From a virus (taxonomy: Duplodnaviria; Heunggongvirae; Uroviricota; Caudoviricetes), in IMG/VR virus record IMGVR_UViG_2671180460_000002: a DNA stretch of 36,986 bases, one strand, 5' to 3'. Positions 1 through 36,986 of this stretch are shown one piece after another. The position numbers and the translations under genes are program-made. The notes under the pieces are model-generated. The model worked only from the letters and a program-made list of their open reading frames with translations, was not told the DNA's origin and searched no databases. How positions within the stretch are numbered: the first letter of the stretch is position 1; the number at the start of each line of letters is the position of its first letter.

Positions 1-1
1 C

Positions 2-184
2 CGCCAGCTTGAGTACAAGCAGCTCTGGCGTGGCGGTCAGGTGCTTGCTGTTCCGCCAGCGTACACAAGCCAGCGTTGCGCGTGCTGTGGTCATACAGCG
101 AAAGAATGTGGGGTAGTGATCAATTCTGGACTGAGTGAGAACAGCCTGGACGAGCCTATAAGCCTTGAGTGGCGCAGGATGTGA
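2..184 (+). pseudogene. IS200/IS605-family TnpB-like C-terminal fragment, apparently interrupted by the prophage left end
   Basis: Frame beginning at 2 reads ...PPAYTSQRCACCGHTAKE..., matching the YTSQ-C-CG zinc-finger region of TnpB/OrfB. After AKE (about nt 106) the expected second Cys pair is absent and the frame stops after 25 unrelated codons. ORF is open at the window edge. Confidence 0.5.
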
Positions 185-411: not shown

Positions 412-1059
412 TCATGCTGATTTTTTACTTACAGATTTTGTTTCTTGCTCCGGTGTGACATCGGTCTGATCACCCGGCGATTGTGGTCGTATATGAGATT
501 CAACAATTCGCAAAATCTCTCTGTCAGTATCTTCGTTTCCATGTAATGCTACTCGGATTGCATCCTTAAGTGATTTCCTGATATTCAGACTTTGGATAGC
601 ATTCTCTTGCTCCTCCAGCGTGTTAGCGGCTTGTTTCGCTTGCCTAGTGGGTTGTTGCAGACGTTTTAGGATTCCTTTGATACCCATATCACATATTGCA
701 TTTATCAATAGTTCTTTATCTTCTGTGGACGCTCTTTTCAATAACTCGTTAGCTAGCTCGTTTGTAATATCGGGAGAAGGCTGCGCTGTTTGGTTTGATA
801 AAGAGTTTGCTGTGGCGGTGAGTTCCTCACCATAAGCGAGCCAATTTAAACTTACCTGCTCTTTATCTGAGATAAGGCAGGCTATTTTAAAAGAGGGTTC
901 TGTTCCTTTATGGATGTAGTTGTTTAAGGTTGAAGGAGGGATACCCCAGTCGCTCGCGGCAGTTCTGACACTGCGCCCACCTATTAGTTTTACTAAACGC
1001 TCTCTAAAACTTTCTTTTCCTCGGTCAACTAAAGAAAAAGCGTCATCATTTTTTGTCAT
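412..1059 (-). CDS. prophage repressor (Mu c-like position), HTH DNA-binding protein
   Basis: Leftward ORF at the left end, divergent from ner. ATG at 1059 is preceded by AGGAAAGG; the track start at 1092 is a TTG. HTH-like segment ...RSVRTAASDWGIPPSTLNNYI... Confidence 0.6.
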   Translation of the reverse strand: MTKNDDAFSLVDRGKESFRERLVKLIGGRSVRTAASDWGIPPSTLNNYIHKGTEPSFKIACLISDKEQVSLNWLAYGEELTATANSLSNQTAQPSPDITNELANELLKRASTEDKELLINAICDMGIKGILKRLQQPTRQAKQAANTLEEQENAIQSLNIRKSLKDAIRVALHGNEDTDREILRIVESHIRPQSPGDQTDVTPEQETKSVSKKSA

Positions 1060-1192
1060 TTTTCCTTTCCTATTTAACCAATTGATTTTCAATCACAAAA
1101 CTATATAAAGACCAAAAGCAAAAAGAAAATACAAAGAAAAGGCTATTTTTGCTTTACATGGGTTACATATGGATCAATACTTATATCCGAAG

Positions 1193-1241: not shown

Positions 1242-1478
1242 ATGATGGTTAGAAATGAAGTAATGAACCTGGACTGGCACCGCGAGTACATTGTCGCAGC
1301 TGTGCACACCAAAGGTTTTACATTGCGTGAACTGTCTGTTCGCGCTGGTCTAAAAAAAGACTCTTTAAAAAATGCATTGTATCGCTCATGCCCTAAATAT
1401 GAACGCATCATAGCCGATGCTATTGGTGTGGAACCTGCGGAGATCTGGCCAAGCCGGTATGCCAGTAAGGCGGCATAA
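1242..1478 (+). CDS. ner: Ner-like DNA-binding regulator
   Basis: Translation contains DWHREYIVAAV...IWPSRY, matching Mu Ner (DWHRADVIAG...IWPSRY). Stop overlaps the transposase start. Confidence 0.85.
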   Translation: MMVRNEVMNLDWHREYIVAAVHTKGFTLRELSVRAGLKKDSLKNALYRSCPKYERIIADAIGVEPAEIWPSRYASKAA

Positions 1479-3520
1479 TGTTTTATTCAGCCAATGAACT
1501 GGCCGGTCTTACTGGTTTGCCCGGTACAGTTCAGGGGGTGCGCTGGACGCTCAATCGGATCACAGAGACGCACCCGGAATGGAAGCGCAAGCGTGAAGGC
1601 ACCAAAGCATTCGAGTATCACATCGACTGCCTGCCCGCTGAAGCGCAGAAGGTTTTACGTAAGCGCCTGACTCATCAGGTCCTGGAAGATGCACAACTGC
1701 CCGCCGTGGTTGAGCAGAAGGCAGTTAAAAACGTCGCCGTTCGTGATGAACTGGAAGTGATGGTCAAATGCCCGGAACTGGCATTACGCGAAGTTCAGGC
1801 ACTGACCGACAAGCAAAAGGCCATCGCTGATGCGCGGATATTGCTGGCTACCGAAGTGCATAAACTGCGTGAATACGCAAGAATGTCCAGGACGGCAGCG
1901 ATAAAACACATTGTTGATGGTATCCGCCAGGAGGCTTTGCCCGAGCGCGTTATTGTGGCAGGTAATACCGCCAATGCCCGACAGGGTAAGCGAACTGGCG
2001 TCAGTACAGGGAGTTTACAGGAATGGTATTCCGCCTGGCTGATGGCGCGCGGTGATGCCAATCAGTTACTGGCGTTACTGGCTCCCGGTCATCATAAGGG
2101 AACACCGTGGGAGCAGGTTTGGTGGTTGAGCGATTTCTTTATGTTCTATCGCTCATGGAAGCGCCCGACCGTTGAATATGCGTATCGCGAGTTTTCAGCC
2201 TGGTGGCATGAAAAACACGCGAACGATGCGGGAATGCTGGCGGCACTGCCTTCAGTTCACGCAGTAAGACGGGTGTTAAGCAGCGTCCCGGTGATTGTTA
2301 AAGAGCGTTTCCGCTCCACCGGTTCAGCCTGGCGTTCGCTCAATCCCTTTGTGCGACGCGACTGGAGCACATTACCGGTTAATGCGGTATGGGTCGGGGA
2401 TGGTCACTGTATGAAAATGACCGCGTTTAACCCCCTGACCGGCAATATTTTCCGGCCAGAAGTGACGCTGGTTATGGATGCGGGGCAGCGCTTTGTTGTG
2501 GGCTGGTCGCTGTCCCTGTCGGAGAACGTGATAGCCGTTGCTGATGCGTTACGTTACGGCATGGCGCAGCACGGGATACCGCTGATTTATTACTCCGATA
2601 ACGGGGGCGGCGAAAAAAACCGGGTACTTGATGCCGATATTACCGGGATTCTGCCCCGTCTGGGTGTGGAACATCACACGGGGATACCAGGTAACCCACA
2701 GGGGCGCGGGGTGATTGAAAGGCTTAACAAGGAAATTCCCCGGGATGTGGCCCTGAGTTTCCGGACGTACTGCTCAAAGGGAGCAGACAAGGAAACCGTA
2801 ATGATGCAGCAACGGATTATGCAGTCAGCCATTAAGGCCACCCACAAAGGGAAAGAGCTGACAAAACGGCAGGTTAAGTCAAGGGATGAAATCCCCACCT
2901 TTGAGCAACTGATGGCAGCTATAGAGCTGGAGGTCAGACGCTATAACAACCGGCCACACAGCAGCCTTCCCCGCAAAGAGGATGGCGAATATTACAGTCC
3001 GGCAGCGTATCGCCGGAAACTGATAAAAGAACAGAATGTTGAAATTGATTTTCTGTCGCCGGAAGAGCTGCATGAAATGTTCAGACCGGAGGTGACGCGC
3101 AAAACATTTCGCGGGGAAATTCAGTTATTCAACAATATTTATTACTCGTATGAGCTGGCAGCAGAGCACGGAAATGAAGTCAGGGTTTGTTACGACATTC
3201 ACGACGCAAACAGCGTGATTGTCAGGCGGATGGACGGTTCTTATATCTGCGATGCCATCTGGAACGGTAATAAGGTTGATGCGTTCCCGAAAGCTGTTAT
3301 CGAACAGCAGCAGGAGAAACGCGCCAGAGGCCGCATTGCACGGGCCACGCAGAAAATCGAAGAGGCTAAACGCGAGCTTACCCCGGCTATTACGCAGAAG
3401 CCTGACTTTAATTTTGGATGTGGTCTGGAGCGTAAGGAGGAAAAGAAAAAAGAAGAACTTTATTTCTTTGCATCCGAGCGTGACCGCAATTTAAAGAAAG
3501 ACGGCACAAACAACCGTTAA
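1478..3520 (+). CDS. Mu-type DDE transposase (MuA-like)
   Basis: 680 aa, immediately after ner. N-terminal winged-helix-like region followed by a large catalytic core, size and position as for MuA (663 aa). Confidence 0.9.
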   Translation: MFYSANELAGLTGLPGTVQGVRWTLNRITETHPEWKRKREGTKAFEYHIDCLPAEAQKVLRKRLTHQVLEDAQLPAVVEQKAVKNVAVRDELEVMVKCPELALREVQALTDKQKAIADARILLATEVHKLREYARMSRTAAIKHIVDGIRQEALPERVIVAGNTANARQGKRTGVSTGSLQEWYSAWLMARGDANQLLALLAPGHHKGTPWEQVWWLSDFFMFYRSWKRPTVEYAYREFSAWWHEKHANDAGMLAALPSVHAVRRVLSSVPVIVKERFRSTGSAWRSLNPFVRRDWSTLPVNAVWVGDGHCMKMTAFNPLTGNIFRPEVTLVMDAGQRFVVGWSLSLSENVIAVADALRYGMAQHGIPLIYYSDNGGGEKNRVLDADITGILPRLGVEHHTGIPGNPQGRGVIERLNKEIPRDVALSFRTYCSKGADKETVMMQQRIMQSAIKATHKGKELTKRQVKSRDEIPTFEQLMAAIELEVRRYNNRPHSSLPRKEDGEYYSPAAYRRKLIKEQNVEIDFLSPEELHEMFRPEVTRKTFRGEIQLFNNIYYSYELAAEHGNEVRVCYDIHDANSVIVRRMDGSYICDAIWNGNKVDAFPKAVIEQQQEKRARGRIARATQKIEEAKRELTPAITQKPDFNFGCGLERKEEKKKEELYFFASERDRNLKKDGTNNR

Positions 3521-3537: not shown

Positions 3538-4431
3538 ATGAGTTTAATTACGCAATTAAATGACGTAATGGCCCGTCGCGGCTATACACAAACCCACGTT
3601 GCCCGTGCTATTGGTCGTAGCAGCGCCGTTATCAACCAGTATTTGCAGGGTAAATATCAGGGCGATATCACTGATATCGAAGAGCGAATTTCTGCCTTTG
3701 TCAGCCGTGAACGGGAAAAAGAAAACAACCGGCGTGTAAAAGCAAGTTTTGTGACTACAGGTATGGCCGCCAAAGGGTTGGAGGCACTGGCCTATGCTCA
3801 TCTGGAGTGTGAAATTAGCGTGTTGTATGGCGCGGCAGGTCTTGGCAAAACAATGATTTTGCGCGAATACGCCGCCAGAAACCGGGACGCAATACTGATT
3901 GAGGCTGACCCGGGCTATACAGCCAGGACACTGCTGGAGGAGTTGTGCCGCCAGTTGGGGGTAAAGGTTCGCGGCAATATTCACGAACTGATTAATGCCT
4001 GTGTACACGAATTGCGTGACTCCGGTCGCCTGCTGATGGTGGATGAAGCCGAACTGCTCCCCTATCGTGCGCTGGAAGTTCTGCGTCGTCTGCATGACAA
4101 GGCGGGCGTCGGTGTTGCCCTGGCTGGTATGCCGCGCCTGTTGATTAATCTTAAAGGCAATCGTGGGGAGTTCGCGCAGCTATACAGTCGGGTGGCTCTT
4201 TCGCTGGACCTCGGCGATACGCTGGCGCAGAAGGATTTCATCCAGATAGCCGCTGAACTGATGCCGGAAGCAGCAGCGCCTGAAATCTGTGAAGCACTTT
4301 ACACACGCTCACGGGGTAATGCCCGACGCCTGTTTAAACTTGTGCGTGGGGTCTACCGGATTTGTGATATCAGCGATGCCCCGGTCAGCGTGCAGGCTAT
4401 TGATGATTTCGCGGAAATGTTAATTCACTGA
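3538..4431 (+). CDS. MuB-like AAA+ ATPase, transposition target DNA activator
   Basis: 297 aa with Walker A GAAGLGKT and N-terminal HTH-like segment; directly downstream of the transposase as in Mu. Confidence 0.85.
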   Translation: MSLITQLNDVMARRGYTQTHVARAIGRSSAVINQYLQGKYQGDITDIEERISAFVSREREKENNRRVKASFVTTGMAAKGLEALAYAHLECEISVLYGAAGLGKTMILREYAARNRDAILIEADPGYTARTLLEELCRQLGVKVRGNIHELINACVHELRDSGRLLMVDEAELLPYRALEVLRRLHDKAGVGVALAGMPRLLINLKGNRGEFAQLYSRVALSLDLGDTLAQKDFIQIAAELMPEAAAPEICEALYTRSRGNARRLFKLVRGVYRICDISDAPVSVQAIDDFAEMLIH

Positions 4432-6626: not shown

Positions 6627-6798
6627 TCAGTTATATCCGCCAGGAACTCGCTTCATGCACATTGCACACCCGGCACTGCGTGGTGGTCGTGTGGTGAAAA
6701 CCGTTTCACCTGCCAGAGATTTTAAATGTGGTTGTGTGGTTGAAATTAATGTCGAGCCTTATTTCGTTAAAGTCGAAACGCTGAAAGCACCGCATTAA
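6607..6798 (+). CDS. hypothetical small protein
   Basis: 63-aa ORF overlapping the previous gene by 20 nt. Confidence 0.3.
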   Translation: MNAKNFNQLYPPGTRFMHIAHPALRGGRVVKTVSPARDFKCGCVVEINVEPYFVKVETLKAPH

Positions 6799-6805
6799 TT
6801 TAATT

Positions 6806-6864
6806 TGTTTTTAATTGTTATTTAAAACAGGCGTAAATCCGCCGGGGCTGGCTTACGCCTGAAT
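6806..6864 (+). repeat. 58-bp direct repeat copy 1: AT-rich TGTTTTTAATT box followed by GC hairpin GGCGTAAATCCGCCGGGGCTGGCTTACGCC
   Basis: Near-identical copy at 7432-7489. Hairpin stem GGCGTAA/TTACGCC; no U-tract follows. Confidence 0.7.
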
Positions 6865-6879
6865 TAAGGGGATTTGTAT

Positions 6880-7425
6880 ATGAAAGATAAAGTCTGGGAT
6901 TTTATTGTTTCTCCTGAAGGTTTTGCTACCCGTTCATCTGAGAAGTTAACCAATGTAACGTTATGGGCTTCATCGTTGCTGGGACGTCTGGGAGGACCCG
7001 GTAGTTTTATGGATGTGGTACTTAATGCCCAGATTGCCGGGAATGCTATGGCCAGTAAGGGGGCTTATATTCAGGGGGATTTGTTCGCCATGATGGCAAA
7101 TGACACGGTGGCACTGTACCTCGCGACACGCAACATACTGACAAGAATATCCATGCAGTCATGTAGGGAGGGTATGGAAGACCTCCGGGACATTCTTGAA
7201 GGTGATTTGCTCACTATTTCAGGCGTGCAGGAATCCCTCCCGCGTCAGCTGCGGTTTATTGACCTGATGGAGTCATATAAAGATAAGCCTGATTTTTTTC
7301 AGATTCGATTCAGCGGAATGGAACTGCTGGATGAATATTATCCGCTGGATTCGATTTCCCGTGATGTGAAGGCGTTCGTAAAGTCTGTTGACCGTCATTA
7401 CCGGAAAGCTGAACGTCGTAGTTAA
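6880..7425 (+). CDS. hypothetical protein (AT-rich cargo gene flanked by direct repeats)
   Basis: ATG at 6880 with AAGGGG RBS 8 nt upstream; the track start at 6874 is a TTG. Visibly lower GC than the late region. Confidence 0.5.
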   Translation: MKDKVWDFIVSPEGFATRSSEKLTNVTLWASSLLGRLGGPGSFMDVVLNAQIAGNAMASKGAYIQGDLFAMMANDTVALYLATRNILTRISMQSCREGMEDLRDILEGDLLTISGVQESLPRQLRFIDLMESYKDKPDFFQIRFSGMELLDEYYPLDSISRDVKAFVKSVDRHYRKAERRS

Positions 7426-7431
7426 TAAGTC

Positions 7432-7489
7432 TGTTTTTAATTTTATTTGTATATGGCGTAAACCCGCCGGGGCTGGCTTACGCCTGAAT
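7432..7489 (+). repeat. 58-bp direct repeat copy 2 (same AT box plus hairpin)
   Basis: Matches 6806-6864 with a few substitutions; ends 16 nt before the ATG at 7506. Confidence 0.7.
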
Positions 7490-11013: not shown

Positions 11014-11292
11014 ATGAAGATTGAACAAATCGGAATGGCAGCCTTCCGGCAACAGGCTGAAAGCGGTGGTGTGGATGAGTTCGTCGTGCAGCGGTTCGGT
11101 GGTGTGTATCACCTCTTCGCTGTGAATCGCCGCGCCGGGGTGTCCTATTTTCTACAGGAACGCCGTGGCGATTACAAGACGTGGCTGTCTCTTGACCGTG
11201 CCGCCGCGTTCCTGTCGGGGATTGGTGTTTCTCGTTTTACCGTGCGTTTTGAGGATAACAAACATGCTGAAAAAGATGATCGGAGCCATTAA
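11014..11292 (+). CDS. hypothetical protein
   Basis: ATG at 11014 after the twin palindromes; the track start at 10978 lies inside the palindrome. 3' end overlaps the GemA-like gene in another frame. Confidence 0.35.
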   Translation: MKIEQIGMAAFRQQAESGGVDEFVVQRFGGVYHLFAVNRRAGVSYFLQERRGDYKTWLSLDRAAAFLSGIGVSRFTVRFEDNKHAEKDDRSH

Positions 11293-11677
11293 AGCCGGTC
11301 AGGCGTATCTGGGGTGGGATGATGCCCTTTATCGCCAGACACTGGCTCGCCTGACCGGTAAAACCAGCACCACACGCTGCAATCTCGATGAACTGCGCAT
11401 CATCCGGGAATACATGCACGAACAGGGATTTCCGCGCAAAGCGCCCGCCGGTAAAGGTCGCCGCCCCCGTGTTGCAATGAGCAGAAAATCGGTATTATCC
11501 AAAATTGAGGCGTTGCTGGCTGATGCCGGTCGTTCCTGGGCGTATACGGAAGGACTGGCATCTCACATGTATAAGCAACATGTGATCGAATGGCTGACAG
11601 ATGATCAACTGTTCGGGGTGATGGTGGCGCTGACAAAAGACGCCAGAAAACGAGCCAGAGCAGCACGTAAACAATAA
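11264..11677 (+). CDS. GemA-like protein (DUF1018-type)
   Basis: N-terminus ...AIKAGQAYLGWDDALYRQTLARLTGKTSTTRCNLDELRIIREYMHEQGF matches the GemA/gp16 pattern; position just upstream of the Mor/C gene as in Mu. Confidence 0.55.
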   Translation: MLKKMIGAIKAGQAYLGWDDALYRQTLARLTGKTSTTRCNLDELRIIREYMHEQGFPRKAPAGKGRRPRVAMSRKSVLSKIEALLADAGRSWAYTEGLASHMYKQHVIEWLTDDQLFGVMVALTKDARKRARAARKQ

Positions 11678-11682
11678 AGAAT

Positions 11683-11710
11683 CAGCCCCTGCCTTGCAGG
11701 GGCTTTTTTG
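11683..11710 (+). terminator. intrinsic terminator ending the early operon
   Basis: AGCCCCTGC-ctt-GCAGGGGCT stem-loop followed by TTTTTTG, 6 nt after the GemA-like stop. Confidence 0.7.
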
Positions 11711-11713
11711 TGG

Positions 11714-11743
11714 TCTGTACAGGCGATCATGTATGGCTATAAT
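11714..11743 (+). promoter_or_regulatory. putative sigma70-type promoter for the Mor/C-family gene
   Basis: Consensus -10 TATAAT at 11738-11743, 30 nt upstream of the start codon; -35 is weak (TGTACA). Confidence 0.4.
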
Positions 11744-11772
11744 AACAGTAAGTTACTACCGGAGACGCCATC

Positions 11773-12240
11773 ATGCAGACCTTCAGTGAAACAGATCTTC
11801 GCGATGCGCAGGCACTACTGCCCGATTCCGTGCAGCAACTGATTAGCGTGATTGGCTTTCCCGCTCTGACCCGGTTAATTCGTTCTTTTGGTGGTGTGAC
11901 GTTAAGCGGTAAAACCGGCGCACACACCGAACGCACCGGCGGTGTCCATGCCCTGTTACATGACGTGCTGACCGAAGACGAAATCAACAAACTGATCCGC
12001 TTTCTTGGCGGTGCGCCGTTTTATATTCCCCGTTGCGATCATGCGTTACGTGCCCTGCGTAACTCCCGTTTTATGGCTGATTTACAGCAACATATAAAAG
12101 GCGGATGCTCACACCGGCAGGCGCTGGCACTGCTTTGTCCACGTTACGGAATTTCAGACCGGTACGCATGGCAACTGATACACCGACGACAAAAACAGAT
12201 TTCGCTGAAGAGCCCCACCCAGGTGGGGCTTTTTGATTAA
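11773..12240 (+). CDS. Mor/C-family transcriptional activator (late gene activator)
   Basis: Contains the Mor-family ...GGAPFYIPR... segment followed by a C-terminal HTH-like region; located after the early terminator and before the lysis and structural genes. Confidence 0.8.
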   Translation: MQTFSETDLRDAQALLPDSVQQLISVIGFPALTRLIRSFGGVTLSGKTGAHTERTGGVHALLHDVLTEDEINKLIRFLGGAPFYIPRCDHALRALRNSRFMADLQQHIKGGCSHRQALALLCPRYGISDRYAWQLIHRRQKQISLKSPTQVGLFD

Positions 12241-12265
12241 TGGGCCTCAGAAAAAGGAGACACTT

Positions 12266-12544
12266 ATGACCAACTATACGGCCCTTGCCGAGTATACGGC
12301 CTACTCAGAGCAGGCCCGGGATGCTGCCGGACGCCGCTTCGCTTATATGAAAAATCTGTCCAGCCAGCTAAACCGAATGGCCGAACAACCGGATATGATT
12401 GTTCATGAAGAAGCGTTGCAGTGTGCCATTGCTGATATTATCGCCAGTGAAAACGAGATGCGAGCCGCTCTGGAAAAAGCAAACGCCTCTGCTCCGCTTT
12501 GCAATAAACCTCTTATTACGCCGGATTCCCTTTCCCGCTTCTGA
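12266..12544 (+). CDS. hypothetical protein
   Basis: ATG at 12266 preceded by AAGGAG; 92 aa. Confidence 0.4.
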   Translation: MTNYTALAEYTAYSEQARDAAGRRFAYMKNLSSQLNRMAEQPDMIVHEEALQCAIADIIASENEMRAALEKANASAPLCNKPLITPDSLSRF

Positions 12545-12563
12545 TTTATCACCCCGCCACGGT

Positions 12564-12580
12564 GGGGTGCTGAACTCCCC
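12564..12580 (+). promoter_or_regulatory. late-promoter dyad motif copy 1 (GGGGTGCTGAACTCCCC)
   Basis: One of three copies of GTGCTGAAC-N-CCC; overlaps a second dyad CACCCC-N8-GGGGTG. Lies upstream of the lysis cassette. Confidence 0.5.
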
Positions 12581-12663
12581 CAGCAGTACCTGCCACTCCA
12601 TACCGCCTATCCTGTCCACTCAGTCTGTAAAACACGCAGGGATAACACTCACAGGAGAATTTC

Positions 12664-13056
12664 ATGTCTGAACCCATTTCAGGCAGCGGCGCGGTGGCAC
12701 TGACCATTGGCGGTGCCGGTGTGTACGGCCTTATCACCAATACCGATTTCGGTGTGGTCGTGGGCGCATTTGCCGGGGCGCTGTTTGTGGTCACCCAGCA
12801 AAAAGAAATCCCGGTCTGGCGCATGATTATCCACCTGATTATCGCGTTTGTGGTCGGCGTTCTGGGGGCCGGTGTGGCGGCGTCACTGATGCAGTGGCTG
12901 ACCCACTACAACGACAAACCCCTCGACGCGTTATGTGCGGTCGGTGTCTCGGCGCTCTCAATCAAGATTCTGACGTTTATTTATAAACAGGATATTTCAT
13001 CGCTGTTTGGCCTGTTTTCACGGCTGCGCGGCGGAGGGGGTGAAAATGGTAAGTAG
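12664..13056 (+). CDS. putative holin-like membrane protein
   Basis: 130 aa with several hydrophobic helices, AGGAG RBS; first gene of the lysis cassette. Confidence 0.45.
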   Translation: MSEPISGSGAVALTIGGAGVYGLITNTDFGVVVGAFAGALFVVTQQKEIPVWRMIIHLIIAFVVGVLGAGVAASLMQWLTHYNDKPLDALCAVGVSALSIKILTFIYKQDISSLFGLFSRLRGGGGENGK

Positions 13057-14938: not shown

Positions 14939-15679
14939 ATGCAAAAACAGATTATTGGTAACGCAACGTTGTATTGCGGTGATGTTCTTGATGTGCTGCC
15001 GGCGTTATCTGAACGTTTTGATGCCGTCATTACCGACCCGCCTTACAGCAGTGGTGGCACACACAAATCAGACCGCAGTATGGCCCCTTCGGACAAGTAT
15101 GTCGGTCACACCCACTATGCCGAGTTCAGCGGGGATAACCGCGACCAGCGCAGCTGGGCATACTGGAGCACCCTGTGGATGTCCGGGGCTGCCCGCCTTG
15201 TGCGCCCCGGTGGTTATTTCATGGTGTTCAGTGACTGGCGACAGCTTCCCACCATGACCGACGTTTTTCAGGCCGGTGGTGTGCTGTGGCGTGGTCTGGT
15301 TGTCTGGGATAAAACGCAGGCTTCCCGTGCGCCACACACTGGCTATTTCCGGCATCAGGCCGAGTATGTGGTCTGGGGCAGCAACGGAAAACTCGACAAA
15401 TGCCCGCACGGTGGCCCGTTCCCGGGTGTGATTACGCAGCGTGTTGTCCCGTCCGCAAAACTGCACATGATCGCAAAGCCGGTTCAGCTGATGGCCGAGC
15501 TGGTTAAACCGCTGGCACCGGATGCGCACGTTCTCGATCCGTTTATGGAAAGTGGCACCACCGCCATCCCTGTACTTGCCCGTGGCGGACGGTTTACCGG
15601 CATTGAAATGACTAACCAGTATTTTGATATCGCCTGCGCACGTATCGAAAAAGCGCAGGCAGAAGCAGCGCAGGTGTGA
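14939..15679 (+). CDS. DNA methyltransferase, beta-class amino-MTase (N6-adenine or N4-cytosine)
   Basis: Motif IV DPPY (AVITDPPYSSGG) near the N-terminus and motif I (LDPFMESGTT) near the C-terminus; this order defines the beta class. No restriction partner nearby. Confidence 0.85.
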   Translation: MQKQIIGNATLYCGDVLDVLPALSERFDAVITDPPYSSGGTHKSDRSMAPSDKYVGHTHYAEFSGDNRDQRSWAYWSTLWMSGAARLVRPGGYFMVFSDWRQLPTMTDVFQAGGVLWRGLVVWDKTQASRAPHTGYFRHQAEYVVWGSNGKLDKCPHGGPFPGVITQRVVPSAKLHMIAKPVQLMAELVKPLAPDAHVLDPFMESGTTAIPVLARGGRFTGIEMTNQYFDIACARIEKAQAEAAQV

Positions 15680-20774: not shown

Positions 20775-20789
20775 GGGTGCTGAACACCC
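20775..20789 (+). promoter_or_regulatory. late-promoter dyad motif copy 2 (GGGTGCTGAACACCC)
   Basis: Perfect GGGTG-N5-CACCC dyad in the 200-bp gap before the protease/scaffold gene; an AT-rich TTTTAAAA repeat block lies upstream at 20715-20745. Confidence 0.5.
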
Positions 20790-20821
20790 TCCACAGTACC
20801 CCGTGTTCCCCTTCCGTCATC

Positions 20822-21964
20822 ATGACGCGTATGAAGATGAACATTGCGGCGTTAAGCCTCGAAATTACTAAAGCAACCCACAGCGAAATCCAGCTGTTTC
20901 CGGCAGGTGAGTTCAGTGCAGTGGATGGTCGCCCACATACCGATGAAGTCGAAAGCGGTAAATGGGTGCTGACTGCCGGACTGGCCGCGCAGCTTGTCGC
21001 GCAGGTGGCAGCCCGTACCACGCCATTTGTCATTGATTACGAACATCAGACGCTGCGCGCCGTAAACAACGGCAAGCCTGCCCCGGCGGCGGGCTGGTTC
21101 AGCCAGGTGGAATGGCGTGAAGGCGCGGGCCTGTATGCCATCGGTGTGGAGTGGACGGAGAACGCGGCGGCCATGATTGCCGCCGGTGAGTACAAATTTA
21201 TTTCCCCGGTATTTGGATACAACAAGCGCGGTGAAGTCATCGAACTGTTACACGCCGCACTGACCAATACCCCGGCGCTCGACGGTATGGACGCGGTCAT
21301 GCTGGCTGCGGCCAGCCGTCTTGCGAGTCTGTCAACTGAAACGGAGACCACAACGGTGGATGAAGAACTGTTAAACGATTTGCTGTCCAGTTTGCGCTGG
21401 ATGCTTAACCTCCCGGTGACCTCAACGGCGGAAGATATTAAAAGCGAGCTGCAAAAGGTCGTTGACATGATTTCGAACGGTCAGGGAACGGCGGCGGCAT
21501 CCGTCAGCCTGCTGGCCCTGCTGAATCAGAAAGACGAGCAAATCGCCAGCCTGTCAGCAAATGCCTATGACCCGACGAAGCATATCCCTCTGACGGCATA
21601 TGAAGAACTTCAGGGACGTTATGCCGTACTGGTGCAACAGTCCGGCGAAGCCGAAGCCGGGGCACTGATTCAGGCGGCGCTGTCTGACGGGCGACTGCTT
21701 CCGACGCTGGAAGACTGGGCGAAAGATTACGCTCGTCGCGATATCAACGGTTTTAAAACCTGGCTGGATAAAACCACCCCGCTTGCCGCACTCAGCAGCA
21801 CCCAGACCGGCGGCAAACCACCCAAAACGCCGTCACCGGCCCCGGCGCAGATTAAAACTGGCGATGACGTCGATGTCGATATCGCCATTTGTTCCATGAT
21901 GGGCACTGATCCAGAAGATATCGCCCGTTATGCAGGAAACGACTATTACGCAGGAGATGAGTAA
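20822..21964 (+). CDS. head protease/scaffold protein (Mu I-like)
   Basis: Position and size as Mu gp32/I. Start uncertain (ATG at 20822, 20831 or 20837; none has a strong RBS); the track start at 20777 lies inside the promoter motif. Confidence 0.7.
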   Translation: MTRMKMNIAALSLEITKATHSEIQLFPAGEFSAVDGRPHTDEVESGKWVLTAGLAAQLVAQVAARTTPFVIDYEHQTLRAVNNGKPAPAAGWFSQVEWREGAGLYAIGVEWTENAAAMIAAGEYKFISPVFGYNKRGEVIELLHAALTNTPALDGMDAVMLAAASRLASLSTETETTTVDEELLNDLLSSLRWMLNLPVTSTAEDIKSELQKVVDMISNGQGTAAASVSLLALLNQKDEQIASLSANAYDPTKHIPLTAYEELQGRYAVLVQQSGEAEAGALIQAALSDGRLLPTLEDWAKDYARRDINGFKTWLDKTTPLAALSSTQTGGKPPKTPSPAPAQIKTGDDVDVDIAICSMMGTDPEDIARYAGNDYYAGDE

Positions 21965-32728: not shown

Positions 32729-32741
32729 GTGCTGAACACCC
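32729..32741 (+). promoter_or_regulatory. late-promoter dyad motif copy 3 (GTGCTGAACACCC)
   Basis: Third copy of the motif, beginning 1 nt after the gp45-like stop and 53 nt before the gp46-like ATG. Confidence 0.45.
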
Positions 32742-32781
32742 TCACCTGATTCTGACCTGTCCATGCTGCCAGACTGGCGGC

Positions 32782-33132
32782 ATGGACCAGACGATTTCAC
32801 CTGCAACCGGCGACTACGAACGCCGCCGGATTTATACACTTCATAACGCGGTTTATCTGCGACTGGCGACACCGCTTGGCAGTTACTGGGCGGATGCGTC
32901 GCTGGGGTCACGCCTGCACGAACTGAAGCGGGAAAAAGACGTTTCCCGTGTTCACCGGCTGGCGGCGCAGTATGCCAGCCAGGCACTTCAGCCCCTGCTT
33001 GATGACGGGCGGGCGACAGCAATTACCGTTGACACGAAAGCGGGCCAGCGCGGCTGGCTGTTGCTGTTAATCACCGTCACGGATAACGCGGGCACACCGC
33101 AGACGTTTGAACACCCTGTGAGGATTATGTAA
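32782..33132 (+). CDS. baseplate protein (Mu gp46-like)
   Basis: 116 aa directly upstream of the baseplate-J-like gene, as Mu gp46. Confidence 0.65.
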   Translation: MDQTISPATGDYERRRIYTLHNAVYLRLATPLGSYWADASLGSRLHELKREKDVSRVHRLAAQYASQALQPLLDDGRATAITVDTKAGQRGWLLLLITVTDNAGTPQTFEHPVRIM

Positions 33133-36136: not shown

Positions 36137-36166
36137 AACGGTCGCTGTCTGGCGACCGTTTTCAGT
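36137..36166 (+). terminator. putative intrinsic terminator after the tfa gene
   Basis: 9-bp stem AACGGTCGC/GCGACCGTT with a 6-nt loop, followed by a T-rich TTCAGTT. Confidence 0.5.
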
Positions 36167-36177
36167 TCAGAGGCTTT

Positions 36178-36986
36178 ATGTCTGTATTAATTTCAGGTGC
36201 ACTTGTTAATGGCACTGGCGTTCCGATGGCGGAATGCAAAATTTATTTAGATGCACTGGTTAATACCAGTGAAGTGGTTATTGAATCATTTGCGGTTATT
36301 GAAACCGATGCGGCGGGACAGTATGCCTTTGAAGCGCAGACAGGAAAATATGCCGTTCATATAAAACAAAAGAACGGCCCGAAATGTTGCGTGGGGAATA
36401 TTGCTGTTTATGACGATTCAAAGCCCGGCACGCTGAACGACTTTCTGACCGCCCCCGATGAAGGCGACCTCAAACCCGACGTGGTAAAACGCTTTGAGGA
36501 AATGGTGGCACAGGCGCAGCAGAGCGCAGAAGCCGCCGCTGGCAGCAAACAACAGGCAGGACAACACGCCACTGATGCACAGCAGATTAAGGCCGACTGT
36601 CAGGCGCTGGCGAAAGACGTACAGCAGAAAGCCGACGCGGTTGCGGAGGGTAAACAACAGGCCGAAAATCTGGTCTCACAGGTTGAGAATGCCGCCGAGG
36701 AGGTAAAAAAGGACGCTGAAGCTGCTAAACAGGCCGCATCTGATGCAGAGCATGTCAGGGAGGATATTGACACCGCGTTATCTGCGACACTGAAAACGGC
36801 GAATCGTTTATCAGAGCTGGCTGATGAAGGTGAAGAGGCTCAGCAGGAATCCCGTGATAATCTTGGACTGAAAAGCGCAGCCACGATGACGCCACAGAGC
36901 GACATTCGCGACCGGACTGAAGGCCGTCTGGCGACACCTGGCGCATTTGGTTTTGGGCATATTTTTCTGCCCGCAGAGCGTATCCG
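36178..36986 (+). CDS. side tail fibre protein, lambda Stf-like N-terminal domain (3' partial, runs off window)
   Basis: MSVLISGALVNGTGVPMAECKIYL...GKYAVHIKQ...IAVYDDSKPGTLNDFL...PDVVKRFEEMV parallels the lambda Stf N-terminus. No stop in window, so absent from the supplied track. Confidence 0.8.
   Translation, partial: MSVLISGALVNGTGVPMAECKIYLDALVNTSEVVIESFAVIETDAAGQYAFEAQTGKYAVHIKQKNGPKCCVGNIAVYDDSKPGTLNDFLTAPDEGDLKPDVVKRFEEMVAQAQQSAEAAAGSKQQAGQHATDAQQIKADCQALAKDVQQKADAVAEGKQQAENLVSQVENAAEEVKKDAEAAKQAASDAEHVREDIDTALSATLKTANRLSELADEGEEAQQESRDNLGLKSAATMTPQSDIRDRTEGRLATPGAFGFGHIFLPAERI

What the first reader, a model, noticed from the sequence alone, without database searches (positions are those of the whole stretch)
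11678..12240. Single Mor/C-family activator insulated by a terminator and carrying its own consensus -10
Mu encodes two paralogous activators, Mor in the early transcript and C from the Mor-dependent middle promoter. Here only one Mor/C-family gene is visible, and it follows an intrinsic terminator (11683-11710) and a consensus TATAAT (11738-11743). That implies a simplified two-stage cascade, or a promoter controlled by something not evident in the sequence.
Basis: partly seen in the sequence, partly recalled or inferred. Interest (0 to 1): 0.45.

Follow-up and report, generated by a model that had tools for sequence, protein, structure and literature searches.

The report
Insulated single late-activator gene cassette
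This Mu-like E. coli prophage has one Mor/C-type late-gene activator, not Mu's two. The gene sits in its own conserved cassette (terminator, ordinary promoter, gene, terminator), which is a variant wiring of a well-known phage timing circuit, not a new kind of system.

Summary
A strong intrinsic terminator (stem 11684-11704 plus T-run) is followed by TGTACA-16 nt-TATAAT (11716-11743) and a 155-aa Mor/C-family gene (11773-12240). The hexamer match alone is within chance; conservation carries the case. Across relatives with activators down to 53% identical, the hairpin changes sequence but keeps pairing (89/90 stem cells), while the -35, the -10, their spacing and a GATC in the spacer never change.

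No second Mor/C gene exists in the window, a complete relative prophage, the right end of a closely related prophage, or 18 viral contigs.

New here:
- A second covarying terminator overlaps the gene's last codons, which encode a clamp-binding-like QVGLF.
- Three late promoters (12569, 20779, 32731) carry a 16-bp GCTGA-N6-TCAGC dyad 23 nt upstream of a -10, matching the Mu Pm geometry (centre -43.5).
- The activator's own promoter has no such dyad, no LexA box and no immunity operator.

So the protein most likely does C's job directly from its own transcription unit. What keeps that promoter silent in lysogens is unresolved.

Single-Mor Mu-like phages are already documented. Other relatives couple the gene to gemA or place a late-type promoter before it. 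I rate this a new variant of a known kind, of moderate interest.

The parts
11264..11677 (+). gemA, the last gene of the early operon in this phage. The mechanical ORF starts at 11165; the start at 11264 is inferred from PGAP annotation of relatives.
   Evidence: Pfam GemA 64.8 bits. Annotation of relatives L001/L005.
11684..11709 (+). T1, the intrinsic terminator of the early operon: 9-bp G+C-rich stem, 3-nt loop, T-run.
   Evidence: Covariation: 10 distinct versions, 89 of 90 stem cells paired, double changes at 5 of 9 stem positions. It is present whatever gene lies upstream.
11716..11743 (+). P_mor, a sigma-70-type promoter: -35 TGTACA (11716-21), 16-nt spacer with an invariant GATC (11725-28), -10 TATAAT (11738-43). 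The start site near 11750 is inferred.
   Evidence: Invariant CTGTACA / GATCA / TGG / TATAAT in alignments A4 and A6. All 18 IMG/VR pattern matches lie upstream of this gene family.
11773..12240 (+). The single Mor/C-family activator gene (155 aa), with Shine-Dalgarno GGAGA at 11761-65. The C-terminal QVGLF (nt 12220-12234) resembles a clamp-binding motif.
   Evidence: Motif compared with the MuC QPDLF motif described in PMC12867686.
12207..12235 (+). T2, a second intrinsic terminator or attenuator overlapping the last codons of the activator gene. Core stem 12211-18 / 12223-30, followed by T5.
   Evidence: -20.7 kcal/mol, z = -4.05. Compensatory changes in L025 and L006, with invariant synonymous sites. 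Absent in relatives whose gene is coupled to gemA.
12266..12544 (+). orf92, a conserved small gene of unknown function between T2 and the lysis promoter. It has no promoter-like site of its own, so it is presumably expressed by read-through of T2 (inferred).
   Evidence: PHROG 7152, unknown function. Conserved position in L022, L025 and L026.
12550..12569 (+). A G+C-rich hairpin without a T-run, abutting the lysis-promoter dyad. Its role is unknown.
   Evidence: Kept with changed bases in L005.
12569..12613 (+). Late promoter 1 (lysis operon): 16-bp dyad GCTGA-ACTCCC-CCAGC (12569-84), 23-nt gap, -10 TATCCT (12608-13). The holin ATG is at 12664.
   Evidence: PWM 25.7 bits, top hit in the window. 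The same element and gap occur in 11 relatives.
20779..20823 (+). Late promoter 2 (head protease operon): dyad GCTGA-ACACCC-TCCAC, 23-nt gap, -10 CATCAT. The annotated ATG is at 20831.
   Evidence: (20.6 bits, not in the training set).
32731..32775 (+). Late promoter 3 (baseplate/tail-fibre genes): dyad GCTGA-ACACCC-TCACC, 23-nt gap, -10 CAGACT. The annotated ATG is at 32782.
   Evidence: (21.5 bits, not in the training set).

Best explanation
The region is a conserved, insulated regulatory cassette: early-operon terminator T1, sigma-70 promoter P_mor, the phage's only Mor/C-family activator, then terminator or attenuator T2.

Shown in silico:
- T1 and T2 are structure-conserved RNA hairpins with T-runs.
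- P_mor's hexamers, spacing and part of its spacer are under purifying selection.
- The activator belongs to the Mor/C family and is closer to Mu C than to Mu Mor.
- Three intergenic sites at the heads of the lysis, head and baseplate gene blocks carry a 16-bp GCTGA-N6(G+C-rich)-TCAGC dyad exactly 23 nt upstream of an nAnnnT hexamer. This puts the dyad at -51 to -36, the published position of the Mor dyad in Mu Pm.

Inferred:
- Transcription from the early promoter stops at T1.
- The activator is made from P_mor as a separate middle-type transcript, with T2 limiting read-through into orf92.
- The protein binds the three dyads in place of a -35 contact and recruits sigma-70 RNA polymerase, probably with the beta-clamp through its C-terminal QVGLF. 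It thus does the job of Mu C without a Mor step.

P_mor has no activator dyad, no LexA box and no immunity operator. Its silence in lysogens and its timing therefore most likely come from indirect, non-immunity-specific control. That could be a conserved early product or coupling to replication or copy number, comparable to phage P2 Pogr. This last step is the weakest.
For: - Terminator and promoter.
- T1 covariation, 89/90 stem cells paired.
- Invariance of the promoter against a divergent hairpin and leader.
- Promoter pattern found only upstream of this gene family in IMG/VR.
- T2 covariation and invariant synonymous sites. T2 is absent when the gene is coupled to gemA.
- Family membership. 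Closer to MuC (9l0x, E 6.6e-4) than to Mor (1rr7, E 0.68).
- Late-promoter motif: three exact 15-mers, all on the + strand and intergenic. PWM top three scores 25.7, 21.5 and 20.6, against the next hit at 16.3 and a shuffle maximum of 17.4. Gap of 23 nt in 18 of 19 sites.
- Mu Pm dyad at -51 to -36, centre -43.5: PMC4287176 and PMC4390567.
- No dyad at P_mor, best score -4.4.
- Hetero-immune relative with the same promoter sequence (one substitution, in the T1 stem).
- Clamp-binding motifs in the Mor/C family: PMC12867686.
Against: - No transcript data. The start site, termination efficiency at T1 and T2, and binding of the protein to the dyads are all predictions.
- A promoter matching 10 of 12 consensus positions with a T-tract upstream should be active unaided. 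That would be lethal in a lysogen unless something silences it, and I found nothing that does.
- Predicted start sites of late promoters 2 and 3 fall on the annotated ATGs. This requires leaderless mRNAs or a slightly different geometry there.
Confidence: 0.6

Rival explanations
1. Read-through model. T1 is leaky or only attenuates, and the activator is made mainly from the early transcript as Mu mor is. The TATAAT/TGTACA pair would then be incidental or minor.
For: In related phages the homologous gene overlaps or abuts the gemA stop with no terminator or promoter (L007, L012, L013, L018, L019), so early-operon expression is a workable ancestral design. As a pattern the promoter match is within chance.
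Against: The -35, the -10 and their spacing are invariant across lineages down to 53% protein identity, while the hairpin and leader diverge. T1 is a strong, covarying terminator. T1, P_mor and T2 co-occur as a set.
Confidence: 0.12
2. Direct immunity control. The prophage repressor binds P_mor and shuts it off in lysogens, as coliphage 186 CI represses the promoter of its late activator gene B (from my own knowledge of the 186 literature).
For: A late activator with a consensus-like promoter must be silenced in lysogens, and 186 sets a precedent.
Against: The operator-like palindromes next to the early promoter (TATCCG-N3-GGATA, 1184-1225) have no copy near P_mor. A relative has a repressor alignable only from residue 53 on (46% identity) and different operator repeats, yet the same P_mor sequence.
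Confidence: 0.08
3. Positive autoregulation. The activator turns on its own promoter after a little read-through.
For: Xenorhabdus, Photorhabdus and Morganella relatives do carry a late-type dyad with the standard 23-nt gap upstream of their activator gene.
Against: In the window the best dyad score within 11600-11790 is -4.4 bits, against more than 20 for the late promoters. P_mor has a usable -35, unlike Mor/C-dependent promoters.
Confidence: 0.04
4. SOS control. LexA binds P_mor, since CTG-N10-CAG-like strings occur in some relatives.
For: L006 and L022 have strings scoring about 10.3-10.4 bits with a LexA matrix.
Against: The window's best string scores 4.1, against at least 12.9 for the known boxes used. 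The candidate strings lie in different registers in different relatives. The matrix was built from boxes recalled from memory.
Confidence: 0.03

Closest known systems
Phage Mu middle operon (early terminator after mor, Pm, E18-E19-gp20-C) and the Mor/C activators
   Same: - The gene order gemA, activator, lysis genes is shared.
- Mu also has a hairpin and T-run directly after the last early gene, next to the next promoter (L004 1680-1706).
- The activator belongs to the same family, with the conserved G..YIP linker and a C-terminal Q..LF motif.
- Target promoters have a 5-6-5 dyad at -51 to -36 and lack a -35.
- The morphogenesis and lysis genes are served by three late promoters, as in Mu (Plys, PI, PP).
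   Different: - There is one activator instead of two.
- The activator gene lies outside the early operon.
- Its promoter is sigma-70-consensus-like with a -35 and no dyad, rather than activator-dependent.
- The half-sites are GCTGA/TCAGC rather than those of Mu.
- The protein is 155 aa, with an insertion of about 20 residues in the N-terminal half.
- No com/mom genes are annotated in the complete relative prophage.
Single-Mor Mu-like phages SuMu, Mannheimia 3927AP2 and phiMhaMu2
   Same: These have one Mor-family gene directly followed by lysis genes and no C, as noted in PMC4553209. SuMu also has hairpins with a T-run and a gap of about 170 bp before its mor.
   Different: The proteins are only 33% identical. 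No promoter or terminator analysis has been published for them. Their upstream sequence is unrelated to P_mor.
Phage P2 Pogr-ogr and coliphage 186 pB-B (own knowledge; Birkeland et al. 1991, Dibbens et al. 1992)
   Same: It works like them. The gene for the sole late activator has its own E. coli-type promoter, is expressed at an intermediate time, and late transcription is tied to replication.
   Different: Ogr and B are unrelated zinc-finger proteins, the phage type and late promoters differ, and 186 uses direct CI repression, which the evidence here disfavours. This is an analogy, not family membership.

Membership tests
Mor/C family of transcription activators (Pfam PF08765) | Sequence match to the family profile above the curated threshold | tested here: met
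   28.7 bits against a cutoff of 24.9. PHROG 836 'late transcriptional activator', 1.1e-42. A profile of the family hits MuC 9l0x at E 6.6e-4 and Mor 1rr7 at E 0.68.
Mor/C family of transcription activators (Pfam PF08765) | Conserved beta-strand linker (G-x-x-x-Y-I-P) between the dimerisation and DNA-binding domains | tested here: met
   G79, Y84, I85 and P86 are invariant in an alignment that includes Mu Mor and Mu C. The linker is described in bioRxiv 10.1101/2025.05.02.651988.
Mor/C family of transcription activators (Pfam PF08765) | C-terminal helix-turn-helix fold like Mor/C | tested here: inconclusive
Mor/C family of transcription activators (Pfam PF08765) | Target promoters with a 16-bp dyad (5-bp inverted repeats, 6-bp G+C-rich spacer) centred at -43.5 and no -35 | tested here: met
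   Three sites in the window and 11 lysis-promoter sites in relatives have a 23-nt gap to an nAnnnT hexamer, apart from one relative at 22 nt. Mu geometry is from PMC4390567 and PMC4287176. Binding itself was not tested.
Mor/C family of transcription activators (Pfam PF08765) | Clamp-binding motif (N-terminal Qx[DE][LM]F and/or C-terminal QPDLF) | tested here: met
   The C-terminal QVGLF is conserved as Q-x-G/D-L-F in the family alignment. The N-terminal motif is absent. Motif definition is from PMC12867686. The interaction was not tested.
Mu-type three-step cascade (Pe-mor, Pm-C, late) | Two paralogous activators, Mor and C | tested here: not met
   One copy only in the window, a complete relative, the right end of a closely related prophage and 18 viral contigs.
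Mu-type three-step cascade (Pe-mor, Pm-C, late) | First activator encoded inside the early operon | tested here: not met
   A covarying terminator lies between gemA and the gene. Some relatives do meet this feature.
Mu-type three-step cascade (Pe-mor, Pm-C, late) | Promoter of the late activator depends on a Mor-type dyad | tested here: not met
   The best dyad score near P_mor is -4.4 bits. P_mor has a -35 matching 4 of 6 and a consensus -10.
Intrinsic (Rho-independent) terminator | G+C-rich stem-loop followed by a U-run, with the structure conserved through compensatory change | tested here: met
   T1. T2. The T2 hairpin also aligns with the terminator end of an Rfam sRNA model, below threshold. 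Termination in vivo is not testable here.
Sigma-70 promoter | A -35 and -10 hexamer at 16-18 nt spacing, conserved in relatives; mapped start site | tested here: met
   Hexamers and conservation. A mapped start site is not testable with these tools.

The most novel reading that the evidence does not exclude
P_mor may be a replication-sensing promoter that replaces Mor. The GATC kept invariant in its spacer (11725-28) would make it silent when fully Dam-methylated in the quiescent prophage. It would become active on hemimethylated, freshly transposed copies, as with IS10 and Tn5 transposase promoters. Together with the activator's clamp-binding-like tail, late transcription would then be gated twice by replication rather than by a protein cascade. 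The evidence is only this: GATCA is invariant in every lineage while neighbouring spacer bases vary, and direct immunity, LexA and self-activation controls look excluded.
Probability: 0.1. Interest if true: 0.6.

Novelty: new variant of a known kind. Interest (0 to 1): 0.35.

Why it matters
Mu is the textbook three-step cascade (Mor, then C, then late genes). Most Mu-like phages have one activator, and how they time late genes has not been worked out.

This prophage family occurs in 58 of 5426 complete E. coli genomes, including EPEC E2348/69 and STEC strains, and in Salmonella and Edwardsiella. It offers a compact, testable case:
- a defined promoter;
- two defined terminators;
- a predicted 16-bp binding site with Mu-like geometry;
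- three target promoters.

Related phages wire the same gene in three different ways: coupled to gemA, self-activated, or insulated behind a sigma-70 promoter. That makes the family a natural series for studying how a timing circuit is rewired. The unanswered question, what silences a near-consensus promoter for a lethal activator in lysogens, can be addressed directly with reporter fusions.

Tried and rejected
- **Second paralogue.** tblastn, a family HMM including Mu Mor and C on all six-frame ORFs of the window, L005, L050 and 18 viral contigs, and PGAP annotation found none.
- **Inserted genes.** The extra genes between gemA and T1 in some relatives are not Mor-like. They have no Pfam hit, and PHROGs gives unknown function for two and no hit for the third.
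- **LexA box at P_mor.** Rejected: 4.1 bits against at least 12.9 for known boxes, with inconsistent registers. The matrix came from boxes recalled from memory.
- **Immunity operators at P_mor.** Rejected.
- **Self-activation dyad at P_mor.** Rejected.
- **T1 or T2 hairpins as protein-binding dyads.** I first considered this because Mu's Mor site overlaps a hairpin. I rejected it because the stems change sequence with compensation and the T1 loop varies from 3 to 6 nt between relatives.
- **The 11-bp palindrome AGTAAGTTACT at the predicted start (11748-58).** Not conserved in Salmonella or Edwardsiella relatives.
- **Rfam.** No family; only a sub-threshold terminator-like match at T2.
- **Phage collection at DNA level.** No match.
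- **Literature.** Searches for transcript maps of single-Mor Mu-like phages or of the E2348/69 prophage found nothing usable.

Full report
**What the window is.** The 37-kb window is almost a whole Mu-like myovirus prophage.
- The early region holds a CI-type repressor (412-1092, minus strand), a Ner-like HTH protein, MuA (1478-3520) and MuB (3538-4431), followed by small early genes.
- gemA ends at 11677, and the Mor-family gene lies at 11773-12240.
- Downstream are two holins, a GH108 endolysin, and head and tail genes to the window's end.
- DNA 90-99% identical to window 11100-12700 occurs in 58 of 5426 complete E. coli genomes. Over the promoter region (11670-11800) several STEC strains are 100% identical, and EPEC E2348/69 also matches.
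- A complete relative (E. coli F163, inserted in the phn operon) shows the full gene set with one Mor-family gene and no com/mom annotated.

**The observation.** The terminator is real. AGCCCCTGC-CTT-GCAGGGGCT lies at 11684-11704 and is followed by a T-run, with a centroid energy of -17.7 kcal/mol and z = -3.0. The promoter-like site TGTACA-16 nt-TATAAT (11716-11743) matches 10 of 12 consensus positions and is the best in the 16 kb scanned. As a pattern it is within chance.

**Comparative support for T1 and the promoter.**
- In E. coli relatives the stretch from the hairpin to the ATG is nearly invariant. This holds even when a different extra gene sits between gemA and the hairpin.
- In relatives from an unnamed sequencing-run assembly, Salmonella and Edwardsiella, whose activators are 82, 65, 60 and 53% identical, the hairpin has a different sequence each time but always pairs.
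- Over ten distinct versions, 89 of 90 stem cells are Watson-Crick or G-U pairs, with double (compensatory) changes at five of nine stem positions. A T-run always follows.
- CTGTACA, GATCA in the spacer, TGG and TATAAT are invariant at fixed spacing. That is 21 of 29 promoter positions, against 5 of 28 leader positions.
- A pattern scan of IMG/VR found 18 matches. Every one lies just upstream of this gene family and just downstream of a hairpin and T-run.

I conclude that both the terminator and the promoter are under selection.

**One activator only.**
- tblastn of the protein against the window gives nothing else below E = 0.19.
- An HMM built from this family plus Mu Mor and Mu C, run with --max on all six-frame ORFs of at least 30 aa, finds only this gene in the window and in the complete relative.
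- The window stops in the tail-fibre region. I therefore also searched the right end of a prophage that is 100% identical over the promoter query, and 18 viral contigs. Each viral contig has one copy, and the right end has none.
- The protein passes the Pfam Mor threshold and matches PHROG 836 'late transcriptional activator' at 1e-42.
- It shares the invariant G..YIP linker with Mu Mor and C.
- As a profile it is closer to MuC (9l0x, E 6.6e-4) than to Mor (1rr7, E 0.68).

**A second terminator.** The last codons of the gene (S-P-T-Q-V-G-L-F-D-stop) form AGCCCCAC-CCAG-GTGGGGCT followed by TTTTT (12211-12235; -20.7 kcal/mol, z = -4.05).
- In Salmonella and Edwardsiella relatives the stem changes by compensatory pairs (CCCCGT/ACGGGG and CCCCGC/GCGGGG).
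- GGGGCTTTTTGATTAA, synonymous sites included, is invariant, and the two bases that follow vary in only a few relatives.
- Relatives whose gene is fused to gemA encode the same Q-x-x-L-F tail with other codons and have no hairpin.

T1, P_mor and T2 therefore travel together as a cassette. The encoded QVGLF resembles the clamp-binding motif shown to be needed for MuC activity (QPDLF; PMC12867686).

**The targets.** Looking for what the activator acts on, I found GTGCTGAAC(A/T)CCC(C/T)C three times in the window. All three are on the + strand and in gaps at the heads of gene blocks:
- 12567, before the holins;
- 20777, before the head protease;
- 32729, before the gp46-like baseplate gene.

The same element lies between the activator gene and the lysis genes in 11 relatives from eight genera. 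It reads as GCTGA-N6(G+C-rich)-TCAGC and is a perfect palindrome in three relatives.

In 18 of 19 sites an nAnnnT hexamer starts exactly 23 nt after the element. With the hexamer at -12 to -7, the dyad spans -51 to -36. This is the published position and architecture of the Mor dyad in Mu Pm: two 5-bp inverted repeats, a G/C-rich 6-bp spacer, centre -43.5 (PMC4390567 and PMC4287176).

A matrix built from the lysis-promoter sites ranks the three window sites first, at 25.7, 21.5 and 20.6 bits. The next hit scores 16.3 and the maximum in shuffles is 17.4. The second and third sites were not in the training set.

The single protein therefore most likely acts as Mu C does, on three late operons that parallel Mu's Plys, PI and PP.

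**What controls P_mor.**
- The best dyad score anywhere in 11600-11790 is -4.4 bits, so the promoter is not self-activated.
- A LexA matrix (boxes recalled from memory) gives 4.1 bits against at least 12.9 for real boxes. The better strings in two relatives lie in different registers.
- The operator-like palindromes next to the early promoter (TATCCG-N3-GGATA, 1184-1225) have no copy near P_mor.
- The F163 relative has a repressor alignable only from residue 53 on (46% identity) and different operator repeats. Its P_mor sequence is nevertheless the same, apart from one base in the T1 stem.

Direct immunity control, as in coliphage 186, is therefore unlikely.

What remains is indirect control by a conserved early product or by replication or copy number. 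From my own knowledge, P2 Pogr is an E. coli-type promoter of a late-activator gene that is nevertheless under indirect immunity control. The invariant GATC in the spacer is the only sequence clue, and it suggests a Dam/hemimethylation test. This step is inference, and it is the main gap.

**Comparison with Mu and relatives.**
- Mu itself has a hairpin and T7 directly after mor, abutting Pm. A terminator next to the following promoter is therefore ancestral to the group.
- The difference here is that the activator gene lies downstream of that terminator and is served by a sigma-70-type promoter.
- Relatives show two other wirings. In Trabulsiella, Intestinirhabdus, Buttiauxella and Serratia the gene overlaps or abuts the gemA stop. 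In Xenorhabdus, Photorhabdus and Morganella it is preceded by a late-type dyad with the standard 23-nt gap.
- That several Mu-like phages lack C and place lys right after mor is already in the literature (PMC4553209). The SuMu paper does not analyse promoters, although SuMu also has hairpins and a long gap before its mor.

**Verdict.** The parts new to me are:
- the insulated T1 / P_mor / gene / T2 cassette;
- the predicted binding site and three target promoters;
- the open question of how a near-consensus promoter for a lethal activator is kept off in lysogens.

Noticed in passing
window 20818-20833 and 32770-32784: With the standard geometry, the predicted start sites of late promoters 2 and 3 fall on the A of the annotated ATGs (20831 and 32782). 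Neither gene has a Shine-Dalgarno sequence, unlike most genes here. These may be leaderless mRNAs, or the geometry or start codons differ.
   Followed up: partly
L009 2900-3000, L010 2890-2995, L014/L015 2895-2995: In Xenorhabdus, Photorhabdus and Morganella relatives a late-type dyad with the 23-nt gap precedes the activator gene. The predicted start falls inside the 5' arm of a terminator hairpin (ACACCTTCC...GGCAGGTGT plus a T-run). Upstream transcripts would therefore terminate, while the promoter's own transcripts could not form the hairpin.
   Followed up: partly
between gemA and T1: L002 2109-2633, L003 2060-2536, L027 832-1170, L029 696-1175, L022 1859-2386: This is a variable gene slot. 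At least four unrelated small genes of unknown function (112-175 aa) occupy the position just before the early terminator in different relatives, and several overlap the gemA stop. The window has none.
   Followed up: partly
window 6791-6864 and 7417-7489: A repeated intergenic element of about 70 nt has two copies (84% identical over 56 nt). Each holds a G+C-rich hairpin (GGCGTAAA.CCGCCGGGGCTGGCTTACGCC) after an A+T-rich stretch. The copies flank ORF 6874-7425 in the early region.
   Followed up: no
window 12550-12569: A G+C-rich hairpin without a T-run ends on the first base of the lysis-promoter dyad, where an UP element or alpha-CTD contact would be expected. It is kept with a G-T to G-C change in the F163 relative.
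   Followed up: partly
window 14939-15679; L022 3540-4292: An N6/N4 DNA methyltransferase gene lies in the late region. Its position differs between relatives: between holin and endolysin in the Salmonella relative, and absent at the corresponding spot in F163. Its specificity is unknown. It could matter for the conserved GATC in P_mor.
   Followed up: no
window 36140-36986; L050 793-2825: After a terminator-like hairpin (about 36143-36166), a second tail-fibre gene starts and runs off the window. In a closely related prophage it is followed by a DUF4376 gene and then host DNA, with no invertase annotated.
   Followed up: no
window 1-150: The first roughly 150 bases look like coding sequence unrelated to the phage, probably host or insertion-sequence DNA flanking the left end. 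The exact left end of the prophage was not determined.
   Followed up: no
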